The notes under the pieces were generated by a model. That model saw only the letters and a program-made list of their open reading frames with translations. It searched no databases and was not told the origin of the DNA. 64,000 nucleotides of DNA, taken from Promethearchaeia archaeon. GTDB lineage: Archaea; Asgardarchaeota; Lokiarchaeia; Sigyniarchaeales; SOKP01. Below, piece after piece: positions 1 to 32,900 of this stretch (its first letter is position 1; each line of letters begins with the position of its first letter). The stretch lies in contig JAHQWJ010000120.1 in the NCBI GenBank assembly GCA_029856125.1, positions 128,001 through 192,000 of the forward strand. The letters run 5' to 3'. The position numbers were made by a program, and so were the translations under genes.

Positions 1-396
1 AAACATAATCCAATAGAAAAGGAAGCCCTCGATTATGATAGCAGGTATTAACCAGAGTGAAGCTTTAATCCCATACAAAGGTATATCTTCCTTATATGTT
101 AATATAAAACTAATTAGAAATAATAGAAGAATTGGTAAAAAATAAGTTTGTAAAAAAGTTGTATAAGGCCAGATAAGAAATCTTCTGTCAATTCTTGGAT
201 CTAAATATGAAATCCAATTTCCATAAGCGTCTACCATGATGATATTCGCAATTATTCCATAAAAACCGATCAAAACAACGATATATAAAAGAATAACGCC
301 ACCTTGGCGACCCCAATTAATGGATATGTGTCCCTTGTTAAACTCTTTAGTAGAAATATTCCCACTTTCGACTACATTCTCTGTTTTCTTTCCCAT
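1..396 (-). CDS. Membrane protein of unknown function, partial (runs off the window start)
   Basis: Hand-translated open frame from ATG at 396: MGKKTENVVESGNISTKEFNKGHISINWGRQGGVILLYIVVLIGFYGII..., several hydrophobic segments, no stop before position 1. Confidence 0.8.
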   Translation of the reverse strand, partial: MGKKTENVVESGNISTKEFNKGHISINWGRQGGVILLYIVVLIGFYGIIANIIMVDAYGNWISYLDPRIDRRFLIWPYTTFLQTYFLPILLLFLISFILTYKEDIPLYGIKASLWLIPAIIIEGFLFYWIMF

Positions 397-604
397 TCTT
401 CAATTTAAGTGTTTTTTAATGAAAATGTTACCAAAAAGAGTTTACTTTACTTATTAATAGTTTTGGAACTAATTATAATTTTTACGTGAGTAATTCACTA
501 CCCTCAAGATCTAAAGTTTATATAGATATTAAATTCAATGATACTTTAGAAAACATTTAATAAAAAAATTAGAAATTTAAAAAACAAATAAAAAGAGAAA
601 AAAA

Positions 605-2779
605 ATGAAAAAATTTAACCAATATATTTTTATAGTGGTTATGCTTAGCGTTATGGTCTTTCCCTTAATTCCTATAATTCCGACTGTTGTTGCCCAAACT
701 GCTCCTATTGAATTTTCTCTCGGTACCGGTGGTCAAGCTAAAGACTGGGATCCAATTTCAAATGCAGGTTCAAGTCCAGTTCAAGATTATAGTTTTAATG
801 CAATGGAAACATTGGGGGTTGCTGATGTGAATTATTCTGGACAAGTAGCGGATTGGATTCCTCATCTTGCATCAAGCTGGGAAATAGAATATTGGCCTGC
901 AGAGAATAACTCACTTGATATACTTCAAACTGGTGGAATTAAATCAATTGAATTTACACTACGAGATGATGTAACCTTCCATGATGGTTCACCTTTTAAT
1001 GCAACAGTTGCAAAATGGAATTTTGATCGCAAGTTTATAGCTGATGGAAATTTAACCGGGAATGGATTATCTAAATGGAAACACGTTTTGTATGTAGAAG
1101 CACTAGAATACGAGGATTACTTTACAGATAGCTGGAACCTAACAAGGTTCAATAATACAATGCCACGATATGGAAGTTGGGGTGGACCAAGTATGCAGGA
1201 TGAAGCTATGCGCGGTTATGTCCCATTAATTAACAATTGTACTATCGTAGAGGATCTAGAATATGGAGGGAAGATAAACATCACATCAAACGGCTGGAAT
1301 TCTGGTCTTCTCGGTGTTATTTGTGGTATGGCAGGGTGGGGTGTAATGATGCTTTCAATGGAATCTTATAAGAATTATTTTGAGGTGCCTATTATCGGTT
1401 ATGGAAATGATCCTTCGTTTCTACAAACACCAACAGAAGCACAAATTATAGCCGGAACTTATCCTACTACTGGCTTCCCTGGACACATGATAGGGACTGG
1501 TCCTTATAAGTTTGTTGTCCACGATGAGGGTGGTTCCCCCGCAGGCGGAAAAATGGTAAAATATGAAGATTGGTGGAATGCTCCATTTATGCCTAATGAC
1601 ACTTTTGTTGTTGATACCTGGAATTTAGTTTGGTTTCCATATGGTGTAGGAGGTGGTGAAGCACTTCGTAATACAGCTTTAGTTACAGGAGAAGTGGATT
1701 TTGGTTTCCACTATGCAACTGAAGCACTCAATTATGACGATATTGAAGCCTCTGCTTTTGTTTCAGCACACGACACTACTTTTGATCAAAACATCAATAT
1801 CATATCGTTAAACTGTATTGAAGATTGGGCTATCCCCGATGATGAATTAGTCCCGCTCCCGGGATCTTCGCTGGATTGGGGCAATAAAAGTATTAGGAAA
1901 GGCGTTCCAAGGGCATTCAGAAAAGCATTATCCTACGCTTTTGATTACGACACTTATATCTCAGCTACTAAGAAAAATCGTGCGGTTCGAGTAAGATATC
2001 CTGTTGGAACAAGTTCTCCATGGTACGATGACTCCATTCCTTACTCCTACTATGATCTTGATATAGCAAGACAAGCATTGAGAGATGGAGCAATTGCTCC
2101 TTCCGAATCAATTAATTGGACAGATGCTCAGTGGATTGCCCGAGCTGCTTCTAACCCACTATATGTATTTGACTACGCTTGGGATGTGCCTCACGAGGAT
2201 GTTAACAACGAAGTCTATAATGCCATCGAAAAAATCGGTTGCGCTACCAATCAATCTGCTGAATGGGAATATTCTCCCCGTGTGTTCTCAGCAATTTATT
2301 ATAATATGTGGCTGACTTCATATTCTGGTGCATATCCTTTCTATACCGCAGGTGGATTTAATATGCTATGGCCTTGGGCCGATACTCTTCCTCCAGTAGG
2401 TGCAATGCTGAAAGGTGGTGAATATTGGAATTTGGGCTTTAGTTACAATGATACTGCTGACGGATGGTTGGATGGACTGAATTTTGCAAGTCCCGCTGAA
2501 TATCAGGTGCTATTAAGCAAATTCGCTGATTGGTTTACAAACTATCAATACGGCTATCTAATGATTTCACAGGATAAGAATTTCTACGCTATCAACAGAG
2601 ATTTTAAATTGAACTATGTTTTTGAAGAAATCTTCCAACTACCTGCTCGGATTATGTATGATCCATACATTGAACCTCCCGCACCCCTGATTCCTGGTTT
2701 TTCGATGTTCACACTAACACTAGTAACACTAGGCTTGATTGCTTTCATAACCTACAATATAAAGCACAAAAAAATATGA
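605..2779 (+). CDS. ABC transporter substrate-binding protein, family 5 (OppA/DppA-like), with C-terminal IPGF-TM-basic anchor
   Basis: N-terminal signal peptide; FTLRDDVTFHDGSPFNA, IGTGPYKF and RKALSYAFD family-5 motifs; C-terminal IPGF + TM + KHKK. Confidence 0.9.
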   Translation: MKKFNQYIFIVVMLSVMVFPLIPIIPTVVAQTAPIEFSLGTGGQAKDWDPISNAGSSPVQDYSFNAMETLGVADVNYSGQVADWIPHLASSWEIEYWPAENNSLDILQTGGIKSIEFTLRDDVTFHDGSPFNATVAKWNFDRKFIADGNLTGNGLSKWKHVLYVEALEYEDYFTDSWNLTRFNNTMPRYGSWGGPSMQDEAMRGYVPLINNCTIVEDLEYGGKINITSNGWNSGLLGVICGMAGWGVMMLSMESYKNYFEVPIIGYGNDPSFLQTPTEAQIIAGTYPTTGFPGHMIGTGPYKFVVHDEGGSPAGGKMVKYEDWWNAPFMPNDTFVVDTWNLVWFPYGVGGGEALRNTALVTGEVDFGFHYATEALNYDDIEASAFVSAHDTTFDQNINIISLNCIEDWAIPDDELVPLPGSSLDWGNKSIRKGVPRAFRKALSYAFDYDTYISATKKNRAVRVRYPVGTSSPWYDDSIPYSYYDLDIARQALRDGAIAPSESINWTDAQWIARAASNPLYVFDYAWDVPHEDVNNEVYNAIEKIGCATNQSAEWEYSPRVFSAIYYNMWLTSYSGAYPFYTAGGFNMLWPWADTLPPVGAMLKGGEYWNLGFSYNDTADGWLDGLNFASPAEYQVLLSKFADWFTNYQYGYLMISQDKNFYAINRDFKLNYVFEEIFQLPARIMYDPYIEPPAPLIPGFSMFTLTLVTLGLIAFITYNIKHKKI

Positions 2780-2920
2780 ATAAAAATAAAATAATACTTT
2801 TTTTTTTTAATTTGTTTTTAATTTTTAAGAAATCCTTAAGAAATTTTAAGATTAAATGTCTTGATAAAAAATTAATGAGAAAAAAGGTCTAAAAATTACA
2901 TCTAAAAGGTTAAAAGTAGA

Positions 2921-4453
2921 GTGAAAAAATCATCAACCATTAATACTTTATCTGGGAGAGTTCAAGGTTATATTAAAGACGGAATAACTATTTTTAAAGG
3001 AGTGCCCTATGCTAGTCCTCCGATTGAAGCACTACGATTTCAACCCCCACAAGAACATAAAGGGTGGGAAAATATTCTAAATACTACTGAATTTGGACCA
3101 TATGCACCACAAGGATTTACAGTATTGGAGGAAATGTTTGGTTTTTTTGAAAACCAAAACGAAGATAATTGCCTTTCATTAAATGTATGGACTCCAGATA
3201 CAGACAATGATTTACGCCCTGTGATGGTATACATACATGGAGGGTCCTTTATATTTGGAGGAGGGGCTGATATCTGGTATGGTGTTGATGGTACACAACT
3301 AGCGCAGAAAGGAAATGTGGTTGTTGTAACGCTAAATTATAGGTTAGGGGCTTTTGGTTTTCTCTATATTGAAGATCAAATAGCTAATATTGGTATCCTT
3401 GATCAAATTGCCGCCTTAAAGTGGATCAAAAAGAACATTGAAAAATTTGGAGGTAATCCAAATAATGTTACAATCTTCGGAGAGTCTGCAGGTGCTTTAT
3501 CAGCATTAATTTTAACCTCGATACCTTTAGCTAAAAATCTTTTTCATAGAGCTATTATTCAAAGTGCTCCAATAATGGATACGAAACCAACAATTAGAAG
3601 CACTACCAAATTATTTCAAGAATTAGGTATTAAAAATGGAGAAATTAGCGCGTTACATGAGTTAAATTTTAAAAAGATTATTAACGCCCAAAATAAAATT
3701 ATTTTAAATGGATTAGAAGAAAGGACACAGGAGATTATGGATTTTCGACCAAGTATTGATGGTAAAATTATTCCAATACATCCAATTGAAGCAATTAAAA
3801 GAGGAATTGGAAGAGATATCGATATTCTAATAGGACATAATAAAGATGAAATTAAGTTATGGACCGGACCTAATCCTCTATTTCAAAACATGAAAATGAA
3901 CGAGATATCTGATTTCTTACTATGGCGAGTAGGAAAATTCGGAGATGATAAACTAATATCAGACAAAAACTTATGTAAAAAGTTTATATCAATATATAAT
4001 CACGATTCCATAAATAGTCCGGTTGAAATTTACGATAAAATTGATACGGACTTTACTTTTAGAATCCCTGCTATTCGAGTATGTGAAGGAAATTCTCAAT
4101 ACAACCCAAACACTTATAATTACATTTTTACTTGGCCTTCACCCGCTTTAGAGGGGAAATATGGTTCTTGTCATATAATGGAGATACCTTTTGCTTTTGG
4201 AACATTAGGAAAAACTGGTGTGGAATGGTTTTATGGTGCTGGAAAAGAAGCTGAATTATTAAACGAAAAAATGATGAGAACTTGGGTATCTTTCGCACTT
4301 AATGGAAACCCAAATAGTGACCTAATTCCCAAATGGAAGCGTTATAATGTCGAAGATAGGACATCAATGTTTATTGGAAAAGAATTCAAAAGTGTTAACG
4401 CTCCAGATGATGATGAAAGAATTCTTTGGGAGAATGTTCTATTTAATTATTAG
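2921..4453 (+). CDS. Type-B carboxylesterase (PnbA-like)
   Basis: FKGVPYA, EDNCLSLNVW, HGGSF oxyanion loop, GESAG nucleophile, CH-x-ME His region. Confidence 0.93.
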   Translation: MKKSSTINTLSGRVQGYIKDGITIFKGVPYASPPIEALRFQPPQEHKGWENILNTTEFGPYAPQGFTVLEEMFGFFENQNEDNCLSLNVWTPDTDNDLRPVMVYIHGGSFIFGGGADIWYGVDGTQLAQKGNVVVVTLNYRLGAFGFLYIEDQIANIGILDQIAALKWIKKNIEKFGGNPNNVTIFGESAGALSALILTSIPLAKNLFHRAIIQSAPIMDTKPTIRSTTKLFQELGIKNGEISALHELNFKKIINAQNKIILNGLEERTQEIMDFRPSIDGKIIPIHPIEAIKRGIGRDIDILIGHNKDEIKLWTGPNPLFQNMKMNEISDFLLWRVGKFGDDKLISDKNLCKKFISIYNHDSINSPVEIYDKIDTDFTFRIPAIRVCEGNSQYNPNTYNYIFTWPSPALEGKYGSCHIMEIPFAFGTLGKTGVEWFYGAGKEAELLNEKMMRTWVSFALNGNPNSDLIPKWKRYNVEDRTSMFIGKEFKSVNAPDDDERILWENVLFNY

Positions 4454-4481
4454 AATTTTATTCACCATTTACATATATTAA

Positions 4482-6002
4482 ATGTCTGAAATTATGAAAA
4501 AGACTCAAAAAATTGAAACTGAAATTGGAAAAATTCAAGGATATATAAACAAAGATATTAAAATTTTCAAAGGTATTCCATATGCAGAACCTCCTATAAA
4601 TCAACTTCGGTTTGATCCTCCGTGTGAGAAAGAACCTTGGAATAATGTGTTTGTAGCTAATAAGTTTGGACCTTCTTCATTTCAAGGACCTGATGTTGGA
4701 AGAGGACTATTTGGGCAATTAACAGAGCAACAAGAAGATAATTGTCTAACTCTTAATATTTGGACACCCGAAACAGATGATAAAAAGCGCCCCGTTATGT
4801 TCTGGATTCACGGGGGAGGTTTTATCTATTCTGGATCATCGAAAGCCATATACGATGGAACCCTCCTAGCGAGCAAAGGGAATGTCGTTGTTGTAACAAT
4901 CAATTATAGATTAGGGATTTTTGGTTTTCTACACATTCCTAATAACACTTCAAATGTAGGCATGTTAGATCAAGTTGCTGCTATAAAATGGGTAAAGAAT
5001 AATATTGAAGCCTTCGGAGGTGATCCAGACAACATCACTATTTTTGGAGAATCTGCGGGAGCATATTCAGTAATCACATTGATGACAATGCCAAGTGCTA
5101 AAGGATTATTTCATCGTGCTATCGCTCAAAGCCCATATATTTTCGAACTTGAACCAACTATAAAAACAACTAAAAATGTAATGAGCCGATTAAACTTAGA
5201 ATTCGATGATATTGATGTTTTAAAGAAATTACCGGCTAAAAAACTTAACAGAATCCAGAACGAATATATCAGCGATATGGCGGGGAACCCTGAAAGCTTC
5301 TATTCAAATTTTCGACCTTGTATTGATAATGAATCGATACTCCAACATCCTTTTCGAGCTTTAAAAGAAGGAAAGGCAAAAGATATCGATCTATTAATAG
5401 GAACTAATCAAGATGAAGCAACTTTTTTTACAAGATTCGACCCTGTCTTTGAGAAATTGAATAAAGAAGGACTGAAAACTCAAATTAGAATGGAATTAGA
5501 TCGATTATCATTTGGATTCAAAACCGACTTTTTTATAGAGCAATATAAAATGATCCGAAAAGGAAAGATGCCGATTGATCCTATAGATATTTATAATGCA
5601 ATTTATACCGATTTGTATTATAGAATACCTGCTATTAAAACAGCAGAATCAAATTCGACTCATAATTCCAATATATATTTTTATCTTTTAGATTGGTGTT
5701 CACCAATGTTTAAATCTGCTTGCCATTCAATAGATTTACCATTTACTTTTGGATATTTCACCTCTGATATCCAAGATTTCATAGGAGAAATTCAAGCAGC
5801 TAAAATTGTAAGTAATAAAATGATGAATGCTTGGATTAATTTTGCTTCTTTCGGAGATGTTAATCATAATTCAATTCCAGAATGGCCAAGATATGAATTA
5901 AAAAATAGATCAACAATAACTATCGGACCTGAGTTTAATGTTGTAGAAGATCCTTTTGGAAAGGAACGAGCATTATGGGAAGATCTTTATAACGATTATT
6001 AA
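4482..6002 (+). CDS. Type-B carboxylesterase, tandem paralog
   Basis: FKGIPYAEPP, EDNCLTLNIW, HGGGF, GESAG, ACHSIDL. Confidence 0.93.
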   Translation: MSEIMKKTQKIETEIGKIQGYINKDIKIFKGIPYAEPPINQLRFDPPCEKEPWNNVFVANKFGPSSFQGPDVGRGLFGQLTEQQEDNCLTLNIWTPETDDKKRPVMFWIHGGGFIYSGSSKAIYDGTLLASKGNVVVVTINYRLGIFGFLHIPNNTSNVGMLDQVAAIKWVKNNIEAFGGDPDNITIFGESAGAYSVITLMTMPSAKGLFHRAIAQSPYIFELEPTIKTTKNVMSRLNLEFDDIDVLKKLPAKKLNRIQNEYISDMAGNPESFYSNFRPCIDNESILQHPFRALKEGKAKDIDLLIGTNQDEATFFTRFDPVFEKLNKEGLKTQIRMELDRLSFGFKTDFFIEQYKMIRKGKMPIDPIDIYNAIYTDLYYRIPAIKTAESNSTHNSNIYFYLLDWCSPMFKSACHSIDLPFTFGYFTSDIQDFIGEIQAAKIVSNKMMNAWINFASFGDVNHNSIPEWPRYELKNRSTITIGPEFNVVEDPFGKERALWEDLYNDY

Positions 6003-6021
6003 AATAAAGTTATGTTAATAT

Positions 6022-7122
6022 TTAGAACTTGTACCTACATGCCTCATATATTTGTGATATTATCTCTTTTCTGCGAGCAAAATGTTGTTCAGTTGGTAAC
6101 ATTGTGTTGCTATTGAAATTTACAATTAAATCTAATTGAGGGTCACAGAAATTTGTGCATGAACTCCTTCCACCGTGCCCATAAGCTTCATCTGAAGTAA
6201 AAATAGAATTGTACTTCCCTAATCCAAAACCCAAACCCCAAGCTGGAGAACTTTGAAGAGTTGTGTCAAATATTCCCTTTCGATGTACTTCAGTTAGATA
6301 GTCTACGGTATGCTTTTCAATTATTCGGTTTCTTCCCCATTCTCCTCCGTTCCAAAGCGCTCGATAAAATTTACCCATATCAAAGGCTGTGCTAAAACAA
6401 GTTGAACCGGGAAAGATTCTGCCTTTAAAATCGTTTACCCAAAGATGCATTTGCTCAGAGAGATGAGCACTATCTTTTAGTGCTAATCGTTTTCCTAATG
6501 ATGCAGCTCTCTTTGAAGGCATTCCAAGGTAAGTCGAATTCATTCCCAAGGGCATGAAAATTTCCTCGTGTAAATACTCTTCGATTTTACGACCATCTAT
6601 TCTATGTATAATCTCTCCTAAAATCATCCAACTAACTCTGGGATGATAACCACATTGAGTCCCCGGTTGATAATCTGCTTTAATTTCACACGCATCATGT
6701 ATAATTTCATCCCATGATGCTGTGAGCCATTTTTGGTAATCTAACATAGGGAAACCACTTGTATGAGTCAAAAGGTGCCTTATTGTACACGATTCTTTTC
6801 CATTCTTAAACTCAGGAATAAAATCTTTTACTTTTTGATCAAAATCTAGCTTACCTTTTTCCCAAAGTTGAGCTATTGCTACTGAAGTCCAAGGTTTACC
6901 ACTAGACCACAGTACTAAGATTGAATTTACTTCCATGGGGATTCCGGGTCTTGTCTCACCAAGAGCAATGTTCATTACCGTCTTACCTTTTCTTGAAATA
7001 TGAAGCTGTACACCAGTATGAAGTTTATTATGTAATTGCTTATTCATGAGCGTTTCTATATTTTTAAGCTCAGAAAGATTCATTCCAATCTTATTTGACG
7101 ATTCCAAAATTCCTTCAATCAT
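6022..7122 (-). CDS. Serine hydrolase, beta-lactamase class C/esterase family
   Basis: SxxK (SSGK), LLTHTSG, YGHGG motifs. Confidence 0.88.
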   Translation of the reverse strand: MIEGILESSNKIGMNLSELKNIETLMNKQLHNKLHTGVQLHISRKGKTVMNIALGETRPGIPMEVNSILVLWSSGKPWTSVAIAQLWEKGKLDFDQKVKDFIPEFKNGKESCTIRHLLTHTSGFPMLDYQKWLTASWDEIIHDACEIKADYQPGTQCGYHPRVSWMILGEIIHRIDGRKIEEYLHEEIFMPLGMNSTYLGMPSKRAASLGKRLALKDSAHLSEQMHLWVNDFKGRIFPGSTCFSTAFDMGKFYRALWNGGEWGRNRIIEKHTVDYLTEVHRKGIFDTTLQSSPAWGLGFGLGKYNSIFTSDEAYGHGGRSSCTNFCDPQLDLIVNFNSNTMLPTEQHFARRKEIISQIYEACRYKF

Positions 7123-7146
7123 GAGAGTTTCTTCATTTGAGTTTTG

Positions 7147-8955
7147 TTATTTTTGGTAATCTTGAATTTGATTATCCCACACATTAATTTTTTGTTTCTG
7201 TTGTTCCCATTCATTTCTCATTTCGTTTTTTAAGTATTCTGTGCTTGGCCCAACTGGTAAATTATCTTTAAAGACTATGTATCTTGGAACATGGTAAAAC
7301 GCAAGGTTATGGTATAAGAACCTACTTAATTTTTCAAGGGTTAGCGTAGAATTTTCTGCTTTAACTACATATAAGAGTAAGTCTCCTCTAGTGTGATTCT
7401 CATTAATGATTGGAATACATGTAGATAAAAAGACACTTGGATGTGAATTCGTCATTCTTTCAATTTCTTTTAGATATATTTTTTCTCCTGCTTTAGTTAT
7501 TATCTCATTTGCCTTTCCCATAAAATAAAGAAACCCCTCCTCATCGATGTATCCAAAATCCCCAGTATAAACCCAACCATCATCAACAACTCTTACATCT
7601 GTTGTTTCTGGTTGTTTATAATACTCTAGTGAGTAATTCATGTTTGATTTTACTAAAATTTCTCCAGTATTGTTCGAACCTGCTGTTAACGGGTTTCCAA
7701 ACGTATCTACGATTTTTAGTTCAACAAAATCTAAAGGTTTTCCGACAGAACCACTTTTACCTCCTTTAGATCCTATTGTATTCATCGTTATTCCTACACC
7801 CTCCATGTGGGACCAAAACTCGTATAATGTGATCCCGAATCGATTTTCAAATGATTTCCATAATTCAACACCTGCACCAAATCCATAAGCCAGATCGATA
7901 GAATGATTGCGATCGAGTTTATTTGGTGAATTATTCACAAGTGCATGTAGATACCCCCCAAAATAAGTTAAAACTTCCGGTTTGTGTATCCTAACGTCCT
8001 CCCAGAACTTTTGAACACTAAAATTTTCAGCCAATACCACCGCGGCGTCATAAAATAGAGAAGGAATTATGACATAAAATTGCGTGGCTCCATGAAATAA
8101 AGGCATTGGACAGTAAACTTTGGTTTCTTTTCTTAAACCTATTTTCTTTAACTCTAAACCAATGTTTATAGCAGAAAGAGCTAAGTTTCTGTACAAAACT
8201 CCTTTAGGATTTCCCGTAATTCCTTCTGTATAATTAATTTGAATTGCATCATCATCATAAATATTTATTTTAGGATTTTCTACATTCGAATCAAGAAGAA
8301 ATCGGAAATCGAATATTTTATCGTTAAATTCAAAGTCGCTAGGTGCGTTATAAACATAAACTCGTTTGATTTTTGGTAAAATGTCCAAGAACTTTTCAAT
8401 AGTATTAAAATAATCATAGTCTGTAATGATTATTTCAGTATCAGAATCACTTAGAATGTGAAGTAAAAACTCTTCCCTTAGACCAGTGTTAATGTTAACA
8501 GCAACACATCCCGATTTTAAAACTCCAAACCACAAAAAAAGAAATTCCGGGCTATTTTTCATAAGTAAAGAAATTTTAGGTTTCTTTAGATGCATTTCAC
8601 TTATAATATTTACTATGCCATGAGCGAACTGGTTCGCACTCGCATTTATATCGGAAAAAGAGTATTTATCTTTGTTAAAATATAAGAATGTAAGCTCCCC
8701 ATTCTCCTCTGCTTTTTTTTCTAATAATTTGGGAAGCGTTATATTATTAATTCCAAATTTTCTTAACGTTCTTGAACGTCTGTTATTTTTTGAAATTAAT
8801 ATTGAATCTTTTTGAACTTCAATTAGTATTTCTTCATCCCTTCTAAAGGGAAAAGAGGTGTCATTAGCTATTTTGCTTGGGATATAGATCCAAGTTGTCT
8901 TATACTTCCCCTTTCCAGAAGGTTTAATTACAATTTTACTTTTGCCTAATTCCAT
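7147..8955 (-). CDS. AbrB-like N-terminal domain fused to a CaiC-like acyl-CoA ligase domain with degenerate catalytic motifs
   Basis: N-terminus TTWIYIPSKIA..FPF..DEEILIEVQKDSILISK; adenylate-forming body with YTEGITGNPKG, YTGDFG and VPRYI. Confidence 0.85.
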   Translation of the reverse strand: MELGKSKIVIKPSGKGKYKTTWIYIPSKIANDTSFPFRRDEEILIEVQKDSILISKNNRRSRTLRKFGINNITLPKLLEKKAEENGELTFLYFNKDKYSFSDINASANQFAHGIVNIISEMHLKKPKISLLMKNSPEFLFLWFGVLKSGCVAVNINTGLREEFLLHILSDSDTEIIITDYDYFNTIEKFLDILPKIKRVYVYNAPSDFEFNDKIFDFRFLLDSNVENPKINIYDDDAIQINYTEGITGNPKGVLYRNLALSAINIGLELKKIGLRKETKVYCPMPLFHGATQFYVIIPSLFYDAAVVLAENFSVQKFWEDVRIHKPEVLTYFGGYLHALVNNSPNKLDRNHSIDLAYGFGAGVELWKSFENRFGITLYEFWSHMEGVGITMNTIGSKGGKSGSVGKPLDFVELKIVDTFGNPLTAGSNNTGEILVKSNMNYSLEYYKQPETTDVRVVDDGWVYTGDFGYIDEEGFLYFMGKANEIITKAGEKIYLKEIERMTNSHPSVFLSTCIPIINENHTRGDLLLYVVKAENSTLTLEKLSRFLYHNLAFYHVPRYIVFKDNLPVGPSTEYLKNEMRNEWEQQKQKINVWDNQIQDYQK

Positions 8956-9202
8956 AATTCTTCTCTCTAGTAATTCAAGTCAAATACTTAAATAAATTAC
9001 TTATGTAAATATAAAGGTAACTGTCATAATTACACCATAACTAATTTTTTTTTTTACATAGAATGTTTTTGTGAAATTAAGAGGTTTACATCAGAATTTA
9101 ATGGAAAATTAAGAATATGCAATACATAATTTATCCCGTTAATAAATAAGCTTAAAAGAAATTACTTGTTATCATTGAAAATAAACAAAGATAAGTATCT
9201 TT

Positions 9203-10342
9203 TTGTCGATGCTATACAAGAAAGAAAGACCAGCTATTTTAATGCTTAAAGATGGGCGATTTTTCGAAGGGATTGGTTTTGGAGCGACTAAAAAAATATG
9301 TGGAGAAATTGTATTCACGACAATTACAGGTGCAGGATATAATGAAACTCTAACTGATCCCTCATATAAGGGACAAATCGTAGTTATGACTCATCCGTTA
9401 GTTGGAAATTACGGCGTTCCGGCTTGGGAAAAAGATTCGCACGGCATTCACAATTATTTTGAATCAGATTCGATAAAAGTAAGTGGATTTGTCGTTAACG
9501 AATGTTGTAAAAATCCTAGCCACTACGAAAGTGATAAAACCTTAAATGAATTTCTTTTGGAAGAAAATATTCCAGGAATCGAATGGATAGACACTAGAGC
9601 AATTACAAAAGTATTACGGGAAGAAGGAGTACAATTAGGAATTCTTGCGGTTTTCAACCCTGGAGAATCTCCTAACTTAGAAGAATTGAAAGAAGAAGTA
9701 AAAAAAGTGGAAGATCCAAACCTAAGACATTTAGCAAGCGAGGTATCTACGAAAGAAGTTAAAACATTTACACCCTTAAATCCTAAAGGAAAAGTGGTGA
9801 TAATAGATTTAGGAGTAAAAAATAATATCTTAAGAAATTTCTTACAGAGAAAAATCGAAGTAATTTTAGTACCGTATAATTATTCGTTTGAAACGATAAT
9901 GTCTTACAAACCAAATGGAGTATTTATTTCCAATGGTCCCGGAGATCCTGCTAAATATAAGAAAGCAATTGAAGTTGCTCGCAAATTAATAATAAATAGC
10001 GTGCCAACAATGGGAATTTGCTTAGGAAACCAAATTATAGCTTTAGGTGCTGGTGGTTCCTCATATAAATTGAAATATGGGCATAGAGGTGGAAACAAAA
10101 CCGTAATTAATCCCAAAACAAAGCAATGTTATATTACTTCCCAAAACCATGGATTTTGCGTAAAGGATTTTGAAAGGAATGGTTTTACTGAATTTTTAAC
10201 AAACATAGATGATAATTCAAATGAAGGTTTGATTCATGAGAGCAAACCTATTTTTGCTGTTCAATTCCACCCTGAGGCTTGTCCAGGGCCCTTAGACTCC
10301 TTATATCTGTTTTATAAATTCATTGAGTTTATGGAGCTGTGA
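9203..10342 (+). CDS. carA: Carbamoyl-phosphate synthase small subunit
   Basis: GEIVF, LTDPSY, SNGPGDP, GICLG, SQNHG, QFHPE. Confidence 0.97.
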   Translation: MSMLYKKERPAILMLKDGRFFEGIGFGATKKICGEIVFTTITGAGYNETLTDPSYKGQIVVMTHPLVGNYGVPAWEKDSHGIHNYFESDSIKVSGFVVNECCKNPSHYESDKTLNEFLLEENIPGIEWIDTRAITKVLREEGVQLGILAVFNPGESPNLEELKEEVKKVEDPNLRHLASEVSTKEVKTFTPLNPKGKVVIIDLGVKNNILRNFLQRKIEVILVPYNYSFETIMSYKPNGVFISNGPGDPAKYKKAIEVARKLIINSVPTMGICLGNQIIALGAGGSSYKLKYGHRGGNKTVINPKTKQCYITSQNHGFCVKDFERNGFTEFLTNIDDNSNEGLIHESKPIFAVQFHPEACPGPLDSLYLFYKFIEFMEL

Positions 10343-10346
10343 TATC

Positions 10347-13300
10347 ATGCCATTAGATAAATCGATAAAAAAAGCGTTAGTATTAGGTTCTGGTGGAATA
10401 CGGATTGGTCAAGCTGGAGAGTTTGATTATTCTGGAAGTCAAGTTCTTAAAGCCTTGAAAGAAGAGGGTATAAAAACAATACTTATAAACCCAAATATTG
10501 CGACTATCCAAACTGACCCTGAATTATCAGATCAAGTTTACTTACTACCGGTAAACGTTAAATATGTGGAAGAAGTAATAAAGAAAGAGAAACCAGATGG
10601 CATACTGTTGGCGTTTGGAGGTCAAACTGCTTTAAATGTCGGAGTTGAGCTTAAAGAACAAGGGATATTAGAAAAATACAATATCCGAGTTCTTGGTACG
10701 CCGATAGAAGCGATCGAGGTTACAGAAGATCGAGATTTATTCGTAAAAGCTATGAACAAAGCCGATGCAAAAGTGTGCCGAAGTAAAGCGGTAACATCAT
10801 ATAAAGTGGCGGTAAAAGTAGCTCAAGAATTTGGTTTTCCTTTAATGCTTAGAGTTGCTTACACCTTAGGTGGTAGGGGATCAGGAATCATTGATAATAT
10901 GAAAGATTTCGAAAGAATGGCAAAAAAAGGGTTAGCCCAATCGAGGATTAATCAAATCTTAATCGAGGAATCAGTATGGGGTTGGAAAGAGGTTGAATAC
11001 GAAGTAGTACGAGATTCAGCGAATAATTGTTTTATTAACTGTAACATGGAAAATTTCGATCCTGTGGGAATCCATACTGGAGAGAGTATAGTAGTAGCTC
11101 CGAGTCAAACTTTAACCAACGAAGAATATCATATGCTTCGGTCTGCTTCAATTCGAGTTATTAGGGGTCTTGGGATTATCGGAGAATGCAACATTCAATA
11201 CGCATTAAATCCTTTTTCAAAAGAATTTCGAGTTATTGAAGTTAATGCGCGCCTTTCAAGATCGTCAGCGTTAGCCTCAAAAGCTACTGGATACCCGTTG
11301 GCGTATGTTGCTGCTAAATTAGCAATAGGATATACTTTACCTGAGTTGAAAAATAAGATTACTGGGATTACTACTGCTTGTTTTGAACCCGCATTAGATT
11401 ATTTGGTTCTTAAAATTCCACGATGGGATTTAACTAAATTTCAAAAAGTCGATCGCCGCATAGGTAGTCAAATGAAATCAGTTGGAGAGGTAATGGCGAT
11501 AGGAAGAACATTTGAAGAAGTTCTCCAAAAAGCGGTAAGAATGTTAGATATCGGCATGAAAGGATTAGTTGCAAATGACTTAGAAGATATTGAAGACATA
11601 AGCGAGTTAAAATACGCGTTAAGAAACCCAACTGACTTAAGACTCTTCAGAATTGCTGAAGCAATCAAAAAAGGCATATCAATTGATGAAATTTATCGTT
11701 TATCAAGAGTAGATAAGTGGTTTTTGTATAAATTAAAAAATATTGTAGATCTTAACCGTCAAATTCAAGACATTGAATTGCTTGAATCAGATGATAAGGA
11801 GAAGAAATATTGGTTAGAAAGAGCTAAAAGATATGGGTTTTCAGATGGACAGATTGCTAAAATAATGGGGGTCGATTCGATTTTCATACGGCAAATGAGA
11901 AGAAGGTTAAATATTCAGCCCTATGTTAAAAGGATTGATACTTTAGCAGCTGAATGGCCAGCCGTAACGAATTATCTTTATCTAACCTACAGCGCTTCTG
12001 AACACGATATTGATTTTGAAAGCGAATATAAATCTAACCTTACAAAAGTTATAGTGTTAGGTTCAGGAACTTATCGCATTGGTGCTTCTGTGGAATTTGA
12101 TTGGGGGTCGGTCAATTGTTTATGGGGATTAAAAAAGCTAGGAATCGATCAGGCAATAATGATAAATTATAATCCAGAAACAGTATCGACTGATTACGAT
12201 ATATCTGATAAGCTTTATTTTGAAGAATTATCTGGAGAAAGAGTGCTGGATATTTGCGAGTTAGAAAAGGCTGATGGTATAGTAGTTTCTGCAGGAGGGC
12301 AAATAGCAAATAACTTGGCTGCTAAATTTTCTAAATATTCAGATTTTTTCAGAAAGGCAAGCATAAAAATTCTCGGTACTCACGGAACGCGCATAGATAT
12401 GGCAGAAGACAGAAGCAAATTCAGTACTTTATTAGATCAGTTAAGTATTAAGCAACCCGAATGGAATGCTTTAACTACTAAAGAAGGAGCCATTGAATTT
12501 GCTCAAAAGGTTGGTTATCCTATATTAGTTAGGCCTTCATACGTATTAAGTGGCGCCGCGATGAGGGTCTCTTATGACGAAAAGACGCTTCAAGATACCT
12601 TAGACCTCGCAGTATCTATATCGAGCGATTATCCCGTTGTTATAACTAAATTTTTTATAAACGCCCGAGAAATTGAGTGTGATGGCGTATGCGATGGTGA
12701 AAATGTGCTTATCGGTGCAATTGTAGAACATATTGAGAATGCTGGTATTCACAGTGGAGATGCAACTATGGCTATACCACCTCAAACGGTCTCCAACGAA
12801 GTTACGTCAAAAATTGAAGAATATACCAAAAAAATCGCTCTAGCATTAAAAATTCACGGTCCTTTTAACGTTCAATATCTAGTTAAAAATAATGAGGTTT
12901 ATGTTATTGAGTGTAACCTGCGCTCAAGTCGAAGCATGCCCTATGTTTCCAAATCTCGGGGTATTAATTTAATGAGACTTGCGGCTGAAGTTATTATGGG
13001 TGGCAAAATTCCAAAAAGATTAATGAATCTTCCTTTAGGAAACTATGTTTCAGTTAAAGCGCCTATGTTTTCTTTTATGAGACTTGATAAAGCAGATCCC
13101 GTTCTGGGCGTAGAAATGAGTTCTACGGGCGAAGTAGCATGCATAGGTGAAAACTTTCCTGATGCCCTTATGAAATCGTTAGAAGCTGCTGATATGAATA
13201 TTCCAATAGAGGGAGGAAATATACTAATTTCCGTAGGTGGAGAAAAATTGAAAAATGAAGTAATCCCCTTGGCAAAAGAGATTAGTGAACTAGGATTTAC

Positions 13301-13658
13301 TATATTTGCGACAGAAGATACTAAGAATGCTTTAACAAGGAATAACATAAACGCTGTAAAACTTTATAAGGTTCACGAATACGGATTGGAGCCTAATATT
13401 ATGCAATGTTTGCAGGATGGGCGCATAGACATGGTAATCAACATTCCATTGCCAACCACAGTAGAAGAAAAATTTAAAATCATAATGGAGGACGAATACA
13501 AAATTAGACGGATGGCTGTAGACTACAATATTCCAGTAATAATCAATCTACAGCTAGCAAAAGCTGTTATCGACGCTATAAAAAATACGCGTGAAAAGAA
13601 AATTGAAATAAAGTCGCTTAACGAGTATCATCAAACGTTAAAAGAAGTGTATTGGTAA
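10347..13658 (+). CDS. carB: Carbamoyl-phosphate synthase large subunit
   Basis: IGQAGEFDYSG, two ATP-grasp halves, MGS domain; start moved to ATG 10347 (MPLDK), just after the carA stop. Confidence 0.97.
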   Translation: MPLDKSIKKALVLGSGGIRIGQAGEFDYSGSQVLKALKEEGIKTILINPNIATIQTDPELSDQVYLLPVNVKYVEEVIKKEKPDGILLAFGGQTALNVGVELKEQGILEKYNIRVLGTPIEAIEVTEDRDLFVKAMNKADAKVCRSKAVTSYKVAVKVAQEFGFPLMLRVAYTLGGRGSGIIDNMKDFERMAKKGLAQSRINQILIEESVWGWKEVEYEVVRDSANNCFINCNMENFDPVGIHTGESIVVAPSQTLTNEEYHMLRSASIRVIRGLGIIGECNIQYALNPFSKEFRVIEVNARLSRSSALASKATGYPLAYVAAKLAIGYTLPELKNKITGITTACFEPALDYLVLKIPRWDLTKFQKVDRRIGSQMKSVGEVMAIGRTFEEVLQKAVRMLDIGMKGLVANDLEDIEDISELKYALRNPTDLRLFRIAEAIKKGISIDEIYRLSRVDKWFLYKLKNIVDLNRQIQDIELLESDDKEKKYWLERAKRYGFSDGQIAKIMGVDSIFIRQMRRRLNIQPYVKRIDTLAAEWPAVTNYLYLTYSASEHDIDFESEYKSNLTKVIVLGSGTYRIGASVEFDWGSVNCLWGLKKLGIDQAIMINYNPETVSTDYDISDKLYFEELSGERVLDICELEKADGIVVSAGGQIANNLAAKFSKYSDFFRKASIKILGTHGTRIDMAEDRSKFSTLLDQLSIKQPEWNALTTKEGAIEFAQKVGYPILVRPSYVLSGAAMRVSYDEKTLQDTLDLAVSISSDYPVVITKFFINAREIECDGVCDGENVLIGAIVEHIENAGIHSGDATMAIPPQTVSNEVTSKIEEYTKKIALALKIHGPFNVQYLVKNNEVYVIECNLRSSRSMPYVSKSRGINLMRLAAEVIMGGKIPKRLMNLPLGNYVSVKAPMFSFMRLDKADPVLGVEMSSTGEVACIGENFPDALMKSLEAADMNIPIEGGNILISVGGEKLKNEVIPLAKEISELGFTIFATEDTKNALTRNNINAVKLYKVHEYGLEPNIMQCLQDGRIDMVINIPLPTTVEEKFKIIMEDEYKIRRMAVDYNIPVIINLQLAKAVIDAIKNTREKKIEIKSLNEYHQTLKEVYW

Positions 13659-15210: not shown

Positions 15211-16209
15211 TCAAATCAAATTGTTTATAATTATTTCTGAAATATCTGATGAATACTCGCCCGTTCTCCTGATACTCTCAATAATAAAACCTATTTCTAC
15301 AAGGTATTCTGAATTAGGGCTGATTTTAATGGCGTTACACGCTTTTGTTAACTTTTTTATCGATTCAATATTTTCGTTTGCTAAATTTAAATCTTTTTGA
15401 AGCCAGGCATCTAAACTCATATTTAGTAATTCTAGTGAGATTTCGCTTGCTTTCATAATGTTATTGTATAATTCCTTATCGATTTTTTGATAGTCTATTA
15501 GAATTACATTTTTTGCTATTTTTACGGCGTGATCACCTATTCGTTCCAAAAACCTGCTTATAAATTTGTAATTACTAGCATCGTCCAAGGTAATATCTAA
15601 TTTTTGACATAAAATTATGTCGCGTAATACGATGTGGGCTTGGCGTTCAACTAACCAATTTAATCTATCAATATCATCGTCACTTTCAATTACTTTTTTT
15701 GCTAACGCTTTATCCCCTGTTTCTAAGGCTTTAAGTGCGTCCTCGTGCATACCGTTAGCTAAAATATACATTCTTTTTATGGTTTTTTCGAAGGGTATTT
15801 CTGTAGGGTCCACTAAATCTTTTATTTTAATATAATTTTCTGATTCCTCTTCGATTTCTGTACCTATAGTAATTTTACTAAACACTCTAACTGTATGTTT
15901 GATATCGGAATCAAATTTTCTACTAGATATCACTTTTATAACGTTGTAACCCATGATATAAGCACCAATTAAGAGTCTGAATAAGAAATCTGGATCTTTA
16001 ATTTCTTCAGCATCAAAGACTTTTTCTTTAATATTCTTTTCTGAACTCATGTATGGAGTAATTAACAAATTCCCATCAGGTTGTGAAAGAATTCCAATTG
16101 TATCTTTAGCTTTAATTTCATGTTTATTTATCCATTCCTTTGGTAAACTAATAATAAAAGACGATCCACCCGTTTTTTGTACTTTCCTTGCTTCAATATT
16201 GAATGACAT
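15211..16209 (-). CDS. phoU: Archaeal phosphate uptake regulator (AbrB + PhoU domains)
   Basis: RKVQKTGGSSFIISLPKEW N-terminus; DDDIDR and ERIGDH PhoU repeats. Confidence 0.9.
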   Translation of the reverse strand: MSFNIEARKVQKTGGSSFIISLPKEWINKHEIKAKDTIGILSQPDGNLLITPYMSSEKNIKEKVFDAEEIKDPDFLFRLLIGAYIMGYNVIKVISSRKFDSDIKHTVRVFSKITIGTEIEEESENYIKIKDLVDPTEIPFEKTIKRMYILANGMHEDALKALETGDKALAKKVIESDDDIDRLNWLVERQAHIVLRDIILCQKLDITLDDASNYKFISRFLERIGDHAVKIAKNVILIDYQKIDKELYNNIMKASEISLELLNMSLDAWLQKDLNLANENIESIKKLTKACNAIKISPNSEYLVEIGFIIESIRRTGEYSSDISEIIINNLI

Positions 16210-32231: not shown

Positions 32232-32900
32232 TTATGATTTTACCCTTTTATTAGCTCTTATTAGCAAATAAAATCCGTAAAATAACGTTGTTATTAACAA
32301 AATTAGTCCTGGGAACACATTAGTAGCGAATGATAGTGAAAATATATCTAAACCAAACGGAACTGCAAAACTTAAAACCATAGAAATAGTATACACGAAA
32401 GAAATTGTTATTAGAACAACACCAAGAATTCTTTCCTTCCTAGCGTTTACAATACTCTTGTCAATGTAAAATAATTTAAGCTCTTTATTCCCTATTAGAG
32501 CAAAAATTGCGCTAAAAATAAATCCAAAAGACGATAAACGCATAACTATATACCCGGATAATTCAAGAAATTGGCTTGCTATTAGCTGTATAATTGCAAT
32601 TTTATAAATTAGATTTTTATCGTATCGATTACCAAGTTTAGCATTACGCAACTCAATAAAGGAAACTACTACTAAAAAAAACGCACAAACTACTAAAAAA
32701 AGTCCCTGGATTTGTAAACCGAAATAAAACCTTGGTTCCCCAACAGGATTACGAGGAAAAAGGATATAAAATCCATAAACCCAATGAACCATGTCTCCAA
32801 TATCCCAGCCTATAGCCTGAGTTACGTGAGTAGGGAAGATCAATCCACACAACGAAAAACCAAGCGACAAATAAAAGAATATCCTAATTTTCCAAGGCAT
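32232..32900 (-). CDS. Multi-TM membrane protein of unknown function
   Basis: About six hydrophobic segments. Confidence 0.7.
   Translation of the reverse strand: MPWKIRIFFYLSLGFSLCGLIFPTHVTQAIGWDIGDMVHWVYGFYILFPRNPVGEPRFYFGLQIQGLFLVVCAFFLVVVSFIELRNAKLGNRYDKNLIYKIAIIQLIASQFLELSGYIVMRLSSFGFIFSAIFALIGNKELKLFYIDKSIVNARKERILGVVLITISFVYTISMVLSFAVPFGLDIFSLSFATNVFPGLILLITTLFYGFYLLIRANKRVKS

What the first reader, a model, noticed from the sequence alone, without database searches (positions are those of the whole stretch)
7147..8955. AbrB-type DNA-binding domain fused to an apparently inactive acyl-CoA ligase: possible one-component fatty-acid/acyl-CoA sensor
Seen: the first ~56 aa (TTWIYIPSKIA..FPF..DEEILIEVQKDSILISK) fit an AbrB/SpoVT swapped hairpin. 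In the ligase body the ANL core motifs are altered together. The P-loop YTSGTTGxPKG reads YTEGITGNPKG, YGxTE reads FWSHME, the GRxKD hinge reads GKANE, and the catalytic PxTxxGK reads PVGPSTEY with no Lys at the catalytic position. Inference: the ligase fold has been repurposed as a ligand-binding module regulating the adjacent esterase/serine hydrolase/SBP cluster (25 nt from the co-oriented hydrolase gene).
Basis: partly seen in the sequence, partly recalled or inferred. Interest (0 to 1): 0.7.

Follow-up and report, generated by a model that had tools for sequence, protein, structure and literature searches.

The report
AbrB-domain regulator with dead ligase
This Asgard-archaeal gene joins a small AbrB-type DNA-binding domain to an acyl-CoA-ligase body that has lost its key catalytic residues, and a conserved DNA palindrome at its own promoter and at neighbouring uptake and breakdown genes suggests it is an undescribed metabolite-sensing gene switch made from an enzyme.

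Summary
Window 7147-8955 (-) is one 602-aa ORF. Residues 78-602 are an ANL (AMP-binding) fold.

Twenty other ANL paralogs in the same genome keep the canonical motifs. Only this gene and its 62%-identical paralog 19 kb upstream are degenerate.

Residues 1-57 are an AbrB-type swapped-hairpin domain. Pfam does not see it. Support comes from the AlphaFold topology, from fold searches whose top ranks are AbrB, SpoVT, VapB and MazE (weak Z, 3.3-4.0), and from a profile-profile match to PF04014 domains (88.5%, P = 2.7e-6).

A palindrome TTAC-N4-GTAA abuts the TATA-like box 53 nt before the start codon. It recurs 24-53 nt upstream in 21 of 26 orthologs examined. Nine of its 19 intergenic occurrences in this genome lie in one 49-kb ester and acyl-CoA catabolic island (P about 7e-16).

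My best reading is a ligand-responsive autorepressor whose sensor is a catalytically dead ligase. DNA binding, the ligand and the inactivity are all inferred.

This scan has reported the same family at least seven times on other DNA, including the paralog. I found no paper describing it.

The parts
7147..8955 (-). Whole gene: 602-aa fusion of an AbrB-type domain and an ANL (acyl-CoA-ligase-like) body
   Evidence: ORF. Full-length homologs of about 600 aa in Asgard archaea and a Bathyarchaeia-type MAG. AlphaFold model with pLDDT 87.5.
8785..8955 (-). N-terminal domain, residues 1-57: swapped-hairpin (AbrB/SpoVT/MazE/VapB-type) putative DNA-binding domain. Invariant residues are G14, Y18, W22, Y24, P26 and F35-P36-F37.
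   Evidence: Topology b7-13, b18-24, a27-30, b43-48, b51-56. VIA-align: 10 of the 13 chains with Z>=2 are AbrB-type, Z 3.3-4.0. hhalign against PF04014-positive domains gives 76% and then 88.5%. No Pfam or PDB sequence hit.
8725..8784 (-). Linker, residues 58-77, containing helix 59-67
   Evidence: AlphaFold secondary structure. It has the lowest identity between the two paralogs, 50%.
7546..8724 (-). ANL large subdomain, residues 78-470. A3 reads TEGITGNPKG (Ser to Glu). A5 reads WSHME (Thr to Met, Glu kept). A7 TGD is kept.
   Evidence: K251, E385 and D466 are invariant or near-invariant across 110 homologs.
7150..7545 (-). ANL C-terminal subdomain, residues 471-602. A8 reads GKANE (Arg to Lys, Lys to Asn). 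A10 reads PSTEY (catalytic Lys to Glu).
   Evidence: It is folded in the model although Pfam AMP-binding_C does not reach threshold.
8997..9008 (.). Candidate operator: palindrome TTACATAAGTAA as read on the - strand, 53 nt before the ATG
   Evidence: The same TTAC-N4-GTAA lies 24-53 nt upstream in 21 of 26 orthologous loci.
9009..9020 (-). TATA-like CTTTATAT (9016-9009) flanked by an extra TTAC half-site (9020-9017), directly 5' of the palindrome
   Evidence: Read. The same 'TTAC + AT-rich box + palindrome' layout occurs in orthologs, usually with a 13-nt start-to-start spacing.
482..493 (.). Second candidate operator, TTACGTGAGTAA, in the divergent intergenic region between orfX2 (heads an Opp-type importer operon, - strand) and the SBP gene (+)
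   Evidence: It is identical in the 92% ortholog of the SBP in genome G236.
6022..7122 (-). Co-transcribed beta-lactamase-family serine hydrolase (366 aa), 24 nt downstream of the regulator gene
   Evidence: Pfam PF00144, 170.8 bits. The same gene order occurs in the 80% ortholog locus L001.
605..2779 (+). SBP_bac_5 solute-binding protein; probable regulon member through the site at 482-493
1..396 (-). orfX2, a small membrane-protein gene that heads the Opp-type importer operon and runs off the window; probable regulon member (site 97 nt upstream)
2921..6002 (+). Two type-B carboxylesterase genes downstream of the SBP gene. Regulation is uncertain: a T-run and no site lie in 2780-2920.

Best explanation
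The protein is a one-component transcription regulator.

Proposed mechanism:
1. Two N-terminal AbrB-type half-barrels pair into a dimer. This dimer recognises the palindrome TTAC-N4-GTAA.
2. At its own promoter the palindrome directly abuts the TATA-like box, and a further TTAC half-site lies on the other side of the box. Bound protein should therefore block assembly of the transcription machinery. That would repress its own two-gene operon (regulator plus serine hydrolase), the divergent importer/SBP promoters, and other promoters of a 49-kb ester and acyl-CoA catabolic island.
3. The ligase body no longer makes acyl-adenylate, because the A10 Lys, A5 Thr and A8 Arg are gone and an acidic residue sits in the P-loop. 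It does keep a conserved, remodelled nucleotide/acyl pocket (K251, E385 and D466 are invariant).
4. This pocket acts as the sensor. Binding of a pathway metabolite, most likely an acyl-CoA or an acyl-nucleotide, changes the conformation and releases the DNA, which induces the island.

Shown here: the domain architecture, the motif losses, the position of the site, its conservation and its clustering.

Inferred: DNA binding by this protein, repression rather than activation, ligand identity, and catalytic inactivity.
For: Motif loss:
- It is confirmed against a solved ligase.
- It is unique to the two fused paralogs among 22 ANLs of the genome.
- The substituted residues are themselves conserved across the family, while K251, E385 and D466 stay invariant. 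That points to remodelling, not decay.

Working ligases are present in the same island. A 623-aa ANL scores above the PRK08279 cut-off and a 554-aa ANL above the PRK06187 cut-off. This protein reaches only 259 of the 476 bits needed.

The N-domain is AbrB-type:
- Topology.
- Fold ranks.
- hhalign 88.5%, P = 2.7e-6, with controls at 2% or less.
- It belongs to a family of 436 cluster representatives, mostly 55-100-aa stand-alone proteins. Some are tandem duplicates, as in MraZ-type barrels.

Palindrome:
- It lies at -53/-52 in the two paralogs, whose upstream regions otherwise share nothing longer than AT-rich 8-mers.
- It is present in 21 of 26 orthologs. The arms are conserved and the centre varies by clade.
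- Only 15 of 3057 genes in this genome have it within 120 nt upstream, and 11 of those are in the island. Nine of 19 intergenic sites fall in 0.58% of the intergenic DNA (binomial P = 6.5e-16).

No other protein with a recognisable DNA-binding domain was found in the island.
Against: - No sequence model (Pfam, PDB profile) recognises the N-domain.
- Foldseek E-values are 0.6 or worse, and VIA-align Z is only 3.3-4.0.
- The exact 12-mer with up to one mismatch is not enriched genome-wide against shuffled patterns. The signal is positional only.
- Orthologs are related, so the 21-of-26 count overstates independence.
- Which protein binds the palindrome is not shown.
- Retention of the P-loop Lys, A5 Glu and A7 Asp leaves room for residual nucleotide chemistry.
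- No ligand can be named from sequence.
Confidence: 0.6

Rival explanations
1. BirA-like bifunctional protein. The ligase body still slowly forms a tightly bound acyl-adenylate from ATP and an organic acid. This adenylate, rather than a free metabolite, is the co-repressor that promotes dimerisation and DNA binding.
For: The P-loop Lys K251, A5 Glu E385 and A7 Asp D466 are invariant or near-invariant in 110 homologs. More distant family members keep canonical A3 and A8 motifs. The operator evidence is the same as in the main explanation.
Against: The A10 Lys is absent in 104 of 110 homologs and in all four full-length 50%-cluster representatives. This Lys is needed for adenylation in characterised ANL enzymes (established knowledge). 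In this protein two Glu residues replace phosphate-facing residues (E244, E573), and the A5 Thr is lost.
Confidence: 0.13
2. It is still a working acyl-CoA ligase of unusual chemistry. The N-domain serves for oligomerisation or partner binding, and the palindrome is bound by some other transcription factor.
For: The whole fold is under strong purifying selection (59% mean column identity). It sits among CoA-dependent catabolic genes. AbrB-like barrels are not always DNA binders (general knowledge).
Against: Twenty paralogs in the same genome keep the canonical motifs while this one lacks four of them. The palindrome follows the gene itself across genera. No other regulator was found in the island.
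Confidence: 0.08
3. It is a DNA-binding regulator, but the ligase body is not a small-molecule sensor. It works as a protein-interaction scaffold, for example by binding a working ligase, a carrier protein or an acetyltransferase, or simply as an oligomerisation module.
For: The AbrB-type DNA-binding evidence is as above. Loss of phosphate-binding residues may mean that no nucleotide is bound. ANL enzymes are known partners of acetyltransferases at the A10 region (PMC11255334 abstract).
Against: Pocket-lining motif residues are conserved in their new identities. The enzyme-derived effector domain of the analogous regulator BzdR binds a small molecule, benzoyl-CoA (PMC3602430).
Confidence: 0.1

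Closest known systems
BzdR of Azoarcus sp. CIB (PMC3602430)
   Same: [quoted passage not shown] It controls a CoA-dependent catabolic pathway. The paper argues that loss of enzyme activity was essential for the regulatory role.
   Different: BzdR combines its N-terminal DNA-binding domain with a shikimate-kinase-like domain and is bacterial. Here an AbrB-type domain is joined to an ANL fold in archaea. The ligand and DNA binding are untested here.
SpoVT of Bacillus subtilis (PDB 2w1t)
   Same: An N-terminal AbrB-type swapped-hairpin domain is followed by a larger C-terminal sensor-type domain. SpoVT is among the best structural matches to the N-domain (Z 3.5, rmsd 2.4 A over 47 residues).
   Different: SpoVT carries a GAF domain rather than an enzyme-derived ANL body. 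Sequence similarity is only detectable at profile level.
AbrB(PF04014)-PhoU protein of the same genome (window 15211-16209, - strand)
   Same: An N-terminal AbrB-type domain is fused to a larger C-terminal domain. It is encoded 6 kb away in the same window.
   Different: Its AbrB domain is canonical (44.8 bits to PF04014) and its partner is PhoU, not a ligase fold.
BirA (biotin protein ligase/repressor of E. coli; from general knowledge)
   Same: [quoted passage not shown]
   Different: BirA is a fully active enzyme of a different fold with a winged-helix domain. This protein lacks the residues needed for adenylation.
Canonical ANL acyl-CoA ligases (closest models PRK06187, PRK06155 and CaiC PRK08008; closest structure 4CL2, 5bsw)
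   Same: Same two-subdomain fold. The A7 TGD, P-loop GxPKG and A5 Glu are kept.
   Different: Scores lie far below every curated cut-off (259 against 476 bits). A3 Ser to Glu, A5 Thr to Met, A8 Arg to Lys, A10 Lys to Glu. There is an extra 77-residue N-terminal module.

Membership tests
ANL superfamily (Pfam PF00501 AMP-binding) | Domain match above the Pfam gathering score, and the two-subdomain fold | tested here: met
   163 bits against a cut-off of 29.9. PDB ligases match at E = 6e-41. The AlphaFold model contains both subdomains.
ANL superfamily, catalytically competent ligase | A10 catalytic Lys (PxxxxGK) | tested here: not met
   E573 aligns to the Lys of 4CL2. The Lys is absent in 104 of 110 family members.
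ANL superfamily, catalytically competent ligase | A5 YGxTE (Thr and Glu) | tested here: not met
   It reads WSHME. The Thr is replaced by Met and the Glu is kept.
ANL superfamily, catalytically competent ligase | A8 GRxKD (Arg and hinge) | tested here: not met
   It reads GKANE. Arg is kept in only 23 of 110 homologs.
ANL superfamily, catalytically competent ligase | A3 P-loop T[SG]GTTGxPKG | tested here: inconclusive
   It reads TEGITGNPKG. The GxPKG part is intact and K251 is invariant, but Ser is replaced by Glu and Thr by Ile.
ANL superfamily, catalytically competent ligase | Adenylation and thioesterification activity | not testable with these tools
   This needs an ATP-PPi exchange or acyl-CoA formation assay.
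NCBIfam ligase equivalogs (PRK06187, PRK06155, CaiC PRK08008) | Score above the curated cut-off | tested here: not met
   259 of 476, 247 of 722 and 210 of 651 bits.
AbrB/MazE/SpoVT swapped-hairpin superfamily | Match to Pfam PF04014 | tested here: not met
   No Pfam hit at E <= 10. Two of ten small stand-alone relatives give sub-threshold PF04014 hits at E = 0.0015-0.0035.
AbrB/MazE/SpoVT swapped-hairpin superfamily | beta-beta-alpha-beta-beta half-barrel topology of about 50 residues | tested here: met
   AlphaFold shows it both in the full-length model and in the isolated domain (pLDDT 82).
AbrB/MazE/SpoVT swapped-hairpin superfamily | Structural similarity to solved members | tested here: inconclusive
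   AbrB-type chains fill the top ranks in two aligners. The scores are weak: Foldseek E >= 0.6 and VIA-align Z 3.3-4.0.
AbrB/MazE/SpoVT swapped-hairpin superfamily | Profile-level homology to bona fide members | tested here: met
   hhalign against 30 PF04014-positive Asgard domains gives 76%, then 88.5% with P = 2.7e-6 using a 149-sequence profile, in the same register. Reversed and shuffled controls give 4.5% or less for the 25-sequence profile and 2% or less for the 149-sequence profile.
AbrB/MazE/SpoVT swapped-hairpin superfamily | Dimerisation into a barrel, and DNA binding | not testable with these tools
   Indirect only. Tandem-duplicated relatives exist, and a 12-bp palindrome lies at the promoter.
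One-component regulators with an enzyme-derived sensor (BzdR-like logic) | DNA-binding domain and effector domain in one chain, with a cognate operator at its own and target promoters | tested here: met
   Architecture. The palindrome is conserved upstream of orthologs and clustered in the island.
One-component regulators with an enzyme-derived sensor (BzdR-like logic) | Effector-dependent DNA binding | not testable with these tools
   This needs EMSA or footprinting with candidate ligands.

The most novel reading that the evidence does not exclude
The two paralogous dead-ligase regulators of this genome share one operator specificity. Residues 1-37 of their N-domains are 84% identical, against 60-65% for the ligase bodies. 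Like AbrB and Abh, they may form mixed oligomers through the swapped-hairpin barrel. One 49-kb catabolic island would then be gated by two different metabolite signals. The ANL 'domain alternation' movement would be reused as the allosteric switch, and loss of the A10 lysine would be the founding step of the whole family.
Probability: 0.25. Interest if true: 0.8.

Novelty: new variant of a known kind. Interest (0 to 1): 0.62.

Why it matters
Little is known experimentally about gene regulation in Asgard archaea. Enzyme-to-regulator transitions are often proposed, but few have been examined experimentally.

This family offers three things:
- A protein family found in Asgard archaea and a Bathyarchaeia-type MAG (about 600 aa, hundreds of sequences).
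- A defined candidate operator, TTAC-N4-GTAA beside the TATA box.
- A graded series of motif loss. A10 Lys is lost in 104 of 110 homologs and in all four full-length 50%-cluster representatives. A5 Thr is lost in most. A8 Arg and A3 Ser are lost only in the Loki-type clade.

The ANL fold is one of the best-studied enzyme folds, but I found no paper in which it serves as a transcription-factor sensor. If confirmed, this would give a handle on how Asgard archaea switch on ester, alcohol and acyl-CoA catabolism. It would also provide a natural model of pseudoenzyme evolution.

Tried and rejected
- **Sequence searches with the N-domain.** Pfam at E <= 10 gave nothing. A profile of the N-domain against all PDB sequences gave only a chance hit at E = 1.8. 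The AbrB call therefore rests on fold and profile-profile evidence.
- **Foldseek on the N-domain model.** No match reached E <= 0.001.
- **Genome-wide enrichment of the 12-mer TTACTTAAGTAA with up to one mismatch.** There is none. I counted 2 exact and 39 one-mismatch hits, against means of 1.3 and 45 for shuffled patterns. The signal appears only when position and the arms-only pattern are considered.
It has no site. It is a T-rich spacer.
- **The site at window 32220.** It lies immediately beside the stop codon of an ORF at 32232-32900, so I treat it as chance.
- **A perfect palindrome in a regulator-less relative (L084).** It lies inside a permease ORF, so I treat it as chance.
- **Presence/absence test.** SBP homologs in seven same-genus genomes without the regulator have no upstream site (0 of 8 loci). 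These homologs are only 33-37% identical, so they are paralogs and the test is weak.
- **'Intact-looking' early relatives.** The 40-45% relatives and the 50%-cluster representatives keep A3 and A8, but all lack the A10 Lys. I do not regard any fused member as a convincing working ligase.
- **Literature.** Five searches found no AbrB-ANL fusion and no ANL-derived transcription factor. The library is incomplete.
Full report
**1. What is at the coordinates**

Window 7147-8955 (- strand) is one uninterrupted ORF of 602 aa starting at an ATG. The window is contig C126:128001-192000 of a 3.69-Mb, 99%-complete genome. The named homologs come from Promethearchaeota/Lokiarchaeota MAGs.

Pfam finds only AMP-binding (PF00501), at residues 78-440 and 163 bits. 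NCBIfam ligase models match over the whole ligase body, but all lie far under their curated cut-offs. The best is PRK06187 at 259 of 476 bits.

A 24-nt gap separates the gene from a co-oriented beta-lactamase-family serine hydrolase at 6022-7122. Upstream, a 247-nt spacer separates it from the divergent carA/carB genes.

**2. The ligase body**

| Motif | Canonical | This protein | Change |
|---|---|---|---|
| A3 | SSGTTGLPKG | TEGITGNPKG | Ser to Glu, Thr to Ile |
| A5 | YGMTE | WSHME | Thr to Met, Glu kept |
| A7 | TGD | TGD | kept |
| A8 | DRLKE | GKANE | Arg to Lys, Lys to Asn |
| A10 | PSGK | PSTE | catalytic Lys to Glu |

This is not lineage-wide drift. I aligned all 22 ANL paralogs of the genome. 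Twenty keep the YGxTE-type, [DG]R and Lys-bearing motifs. Only this gene and its paralog at C126:115802-117613 carry the altered set. The two paralogs are 62% identical, with no gaps over 600 residues.

Across 110 full-length homologs the pattern is as follows:

| Position | State across 110 homologs |
|---|---|
| P-loop Lys K251 | invariant |
| A5 Glu E385 | invariant |
| A7 Asp D466 | 108 of 110 |
| A10 Lys | present in only 6 (Glu 63, Leu 13, Met 9, Phe 9) |
| A5 Thr | 14 |
| A8 Arg | 23 |
| A3 Ser | 43 |

The replacement residues are themselves conserved within clades, for example PSTEY and CWSHxEG. The pocket has therefore been remodelled under selection and has not decayed.

More distant members (40-45% identity) keep canonical A3 and A8. 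They still lack the A10 Lys: P0117 aligns LPKNANEFIQK to LPKTASGKIQR of oxalate-CoA ligase 5ie0. The same holds for all four full-length cluster representatives found with the N-domain profile. On this point I differ from earlier notes of this scan that speak of 'intact-looking' relatives.

**3. The N-terminal domain**

Residues 1-70 are conserved in every full-length homolog. G14, Y18, W22, Y24, P26 and F35-P36-F37 are invariant.

Sequence libraries do not recognise the domain. The other evidence is as follows:
- **Topology.** AlphaFold gives strand 7-13, strand 18-24, helix 27-30, strand 43-48, strand 51-56 and helix 59-67. It does so both in the full-length model (pLDDT 87.5 overall, 65-77 in this region) and in the isolated domain (pLDDT 82).
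- **Foldseek.** Its top ranks are VapB on operator DNA, MazE, the AbrB-like C56/C68 proteins, AbrB, Abh and SpoVT. E-values are 0.6 or worse.
- **VIA-align.** This search does not depend on Foldseek. It found only 13 of 48,161 chains with Z >= 2, and ten of them are AbrB-type. They include Sso7c4 (5itj, Z 4.0, 2.3 A over 46 residues), VapB, SpoVT (2w1t, Z 3.5) and AbrB (1yfb, Z 3.4). The scores are low in absolute terms, as expected for a 50-residue half-barrel, but the list is highly selective.
- **Profile-profile comparison.** I compared the N-domain family with 30 PF04014-positive domains taken from this and related genomes. The result was 76% probability (P = 2e-5). It rose to 88.5% (P = 2.7e-6) with a 149-sequence profile, in the register IYIPSK..D..FPF..EEV.IEI...L.I.K against I.IPKE.R..L.I..GD.V.I......I.I.P. 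Reversed and shuffled controls gave 4.5% or less for the first profile and 2% or less for the second.
- **Family size.** The N-domain profile finds 436 cluster representatives at E <= 1e-3 among 1.84 billion proteins. Nearly all are stand-alone proteins of 55-100 aa with the same Y...[FW]IYIP...a.D..FPF signature. Several are tandem duplicates. This is the arrangement by which MraZ-type proteins build the barrel within one chain (general knowledge).

I conclude that the domain is a divergent AbrB-type module not covered by Pfam.

**4. The palindrome**

The upstream regions of the two paralogs share nothing longer than a few AT-rich 8-mers. Yet both carry a 12-bp palindrome at the same distance from the ATG:
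- TTACATAAGTAA at -53 in this gene (window 8997-9008).
- TTACTTAAGTAA at -52 in the paralog.

In this gene the palindrome directly follows CTTTATAT (9016-9009). A further TTAC (9020-9017) lies on the other side of that TATA-like box.

In 26 distinct orthologous loci from other genomes, 21 carry TTAC-N4-GTAA 24-53 nt before the start codon. The arms are constant. The centre varies by clade: TTAA, GGTA, GGTC, AATA, AGTA. There is usually an AT-rich box and a second TTAC 13 nt upstream.

In this genome only 15 of 3057 crudely called genes have the pattern within 120 nt upstream, and 11 of them lie in C126:88-137 kb. Of 19 intergenic occurrences genome-wide, nine fall in this 49-kb span, which holds 0.58% of the intergenic DNA (binomial P = 6.5e-16).

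The exact 12-mer is not over-represented genome-wide, so the evidence is positional.

Within the window the sites are 8997-9008 (own promoter) and 482-493 (between orfX2, which heads an Opp-type importer operon, and the SBP gene). The latter is identical in the 92% SBP ortholog of a sister genome. The spacer 2780-2920 has none.

**5. The island**

Genes behind site-bearing promoters encode the following:
- an HpaB/4-hydroxybutyryl-CoA-dehydratase-family protein;
- an MFS transporter;
- enoyl-CoA hydratase;
- a CoA-acylating (methylmalonate-semialdehyde-type) aldehyde dehydrogenase;
- an acyl-CoA dehydrogenase;
- an iron alcohol dehydrogenase;
- a type-B carboxylesterase;
- a canonical 623-aa acyl-CoA synthetase that passes its NCBIfam cut-off;
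- two Opp-type importers with their SBPs;
- the two fusion genes themselves.

Other genes in the island include CoA-transferase subunits, further esterases and a second canonical ligase.

I found no other protein with a recognisable DNA-binding domain in the island. Pfam limits this statement, and a few ORFs have no annotation.

The gene order carBA | regulator | hydrolase | esterase is conserved in the 80% ortholog (L001).

**6. Mechanism**

The simplest reading is a ligand-responsive autorepressor, described step by step under the best explanation.

The DNA-facing half of the N-domain (residues 1-37) is 84% identical between the paralogs. The ligase bodies are 60-65% identical. The paralogs probably read the same operator but different signals.

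The rivals are a BirA-like protein with residual adenylation, a still-active enzyme combined with an unrelated factor binding the palindrome, and a sensor-less scaffold. They are weighed in the Rival explanations section.

**7. Comparison and novelty**

In logic the protein resembles BzdR, in which an enzyme-derived, inactivated effector domain is joined to a DNA-binding domain (PMC3602430). In architecture it resembles SpoVT (AbrB plus a sensor domain) and the AbrB-PhoU protein encoded 6 kb away.

It is a member of the ANL fold family but fails the catalytic-motif tests. It is an AbrB-type domain by fold and profile evidence but fails the Pfam model.

Five literature searches found no description of an AbrB-ANL fusion or an ANL-derived transcription factor.

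Earlier follow-ups of this scan reached the same overall reading on the paralog and in at least five other genomes. This report is therefore a replication on a second copy. It adds:
- the family-wide loss of the A10 Lys;
- the profile link to PF04014;
- the large stand-alone and tandem-duplicate family of the N-domain;
- the contrast between the two fused genes and the 20 other ANL paralogs of the genome;
- the island-level statistics;
- the TATA-flanking layout of the operator.

Noticed in passing
window 15211-16209 (-): A 332-aa protein has a canonical AbrB-type N-terminal domain (PF04014, 44.8 bits) fused to PhoU domains. This is the usual archaeal AbrB-PhoU regulator, encoded 6 kb from the finding. 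It shows that AbrB-plus-large-domain fusions are normal in this genome.
   Followed up: partly
G000:C126:88000-137200 (window 1-9200 is its right end): A 49-kb catabolic island carries two Opp-type importers, at least five esterases, two Fe-ADHs, an aldehyde dehydrogenase, CoA transferase, enoyl-CoA hydratases, an acyl-CoA dehydrogenase, an HpaB/AbfD-family protein and two canonical acyl-CoA ligases. Nine TTAC-N4-GTAA sites lie at its promoters. The substrate class is unknown; esters of short hydroxy- or alkyl acids is my guess.
   Followed up: partly
proteins P0147, P0173, P0221: These small proteins (111-163 aa) carry two tandem copies of the Y..IYIP..D..FPF domain. That suggests single-chain barrels like MraZ. 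The stand-alone family (436 cluster representatives) has no Pfam model.
   Followed up: partly
L019:1501-1722 (+) (genome G217): A 73-aa stand-alone copy of the N-domain is 52% identical to the query domain. It has a one-mismatch palindrome 49 nt upstream and an unrelated 176-aa ORF downstream. It is either a truncated remnant or a free DNA-binding version.
   Followed up: no
L040:1156-1575 (-) (genome G008): The same N-domain type is fused to DUF5678 (139 aa). This is a different partner for the module.
   Followed up: no
window 9203-13658 (+): carA (379 aa, TTG start as listed) and carB (1111 aa) overlap by 20 nt. They are divergent from the regulator gene, and this pairing with carBA is kept in two other genomes (L001, L002). 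The palindrome lies 206 nt from the carA start, so regulation of carAB seems unlikely but is untested.
   Followed up: no
window 2780-2920: The SBP-esterase spacer is extremely T/A-rich, with an 11-T run. It may be an archaeal terminator followed by a separate promoter for the two carboxylesterase genes.
   Followed up: no
L031 (genome G130, C17): An ortholog appears split into a 160-aa N-terminal ORF and an overlapping 419-aa ORF in another frame. This is a probable frameshift or assembly error. No palindrome lies upstream.
   Followed up: no
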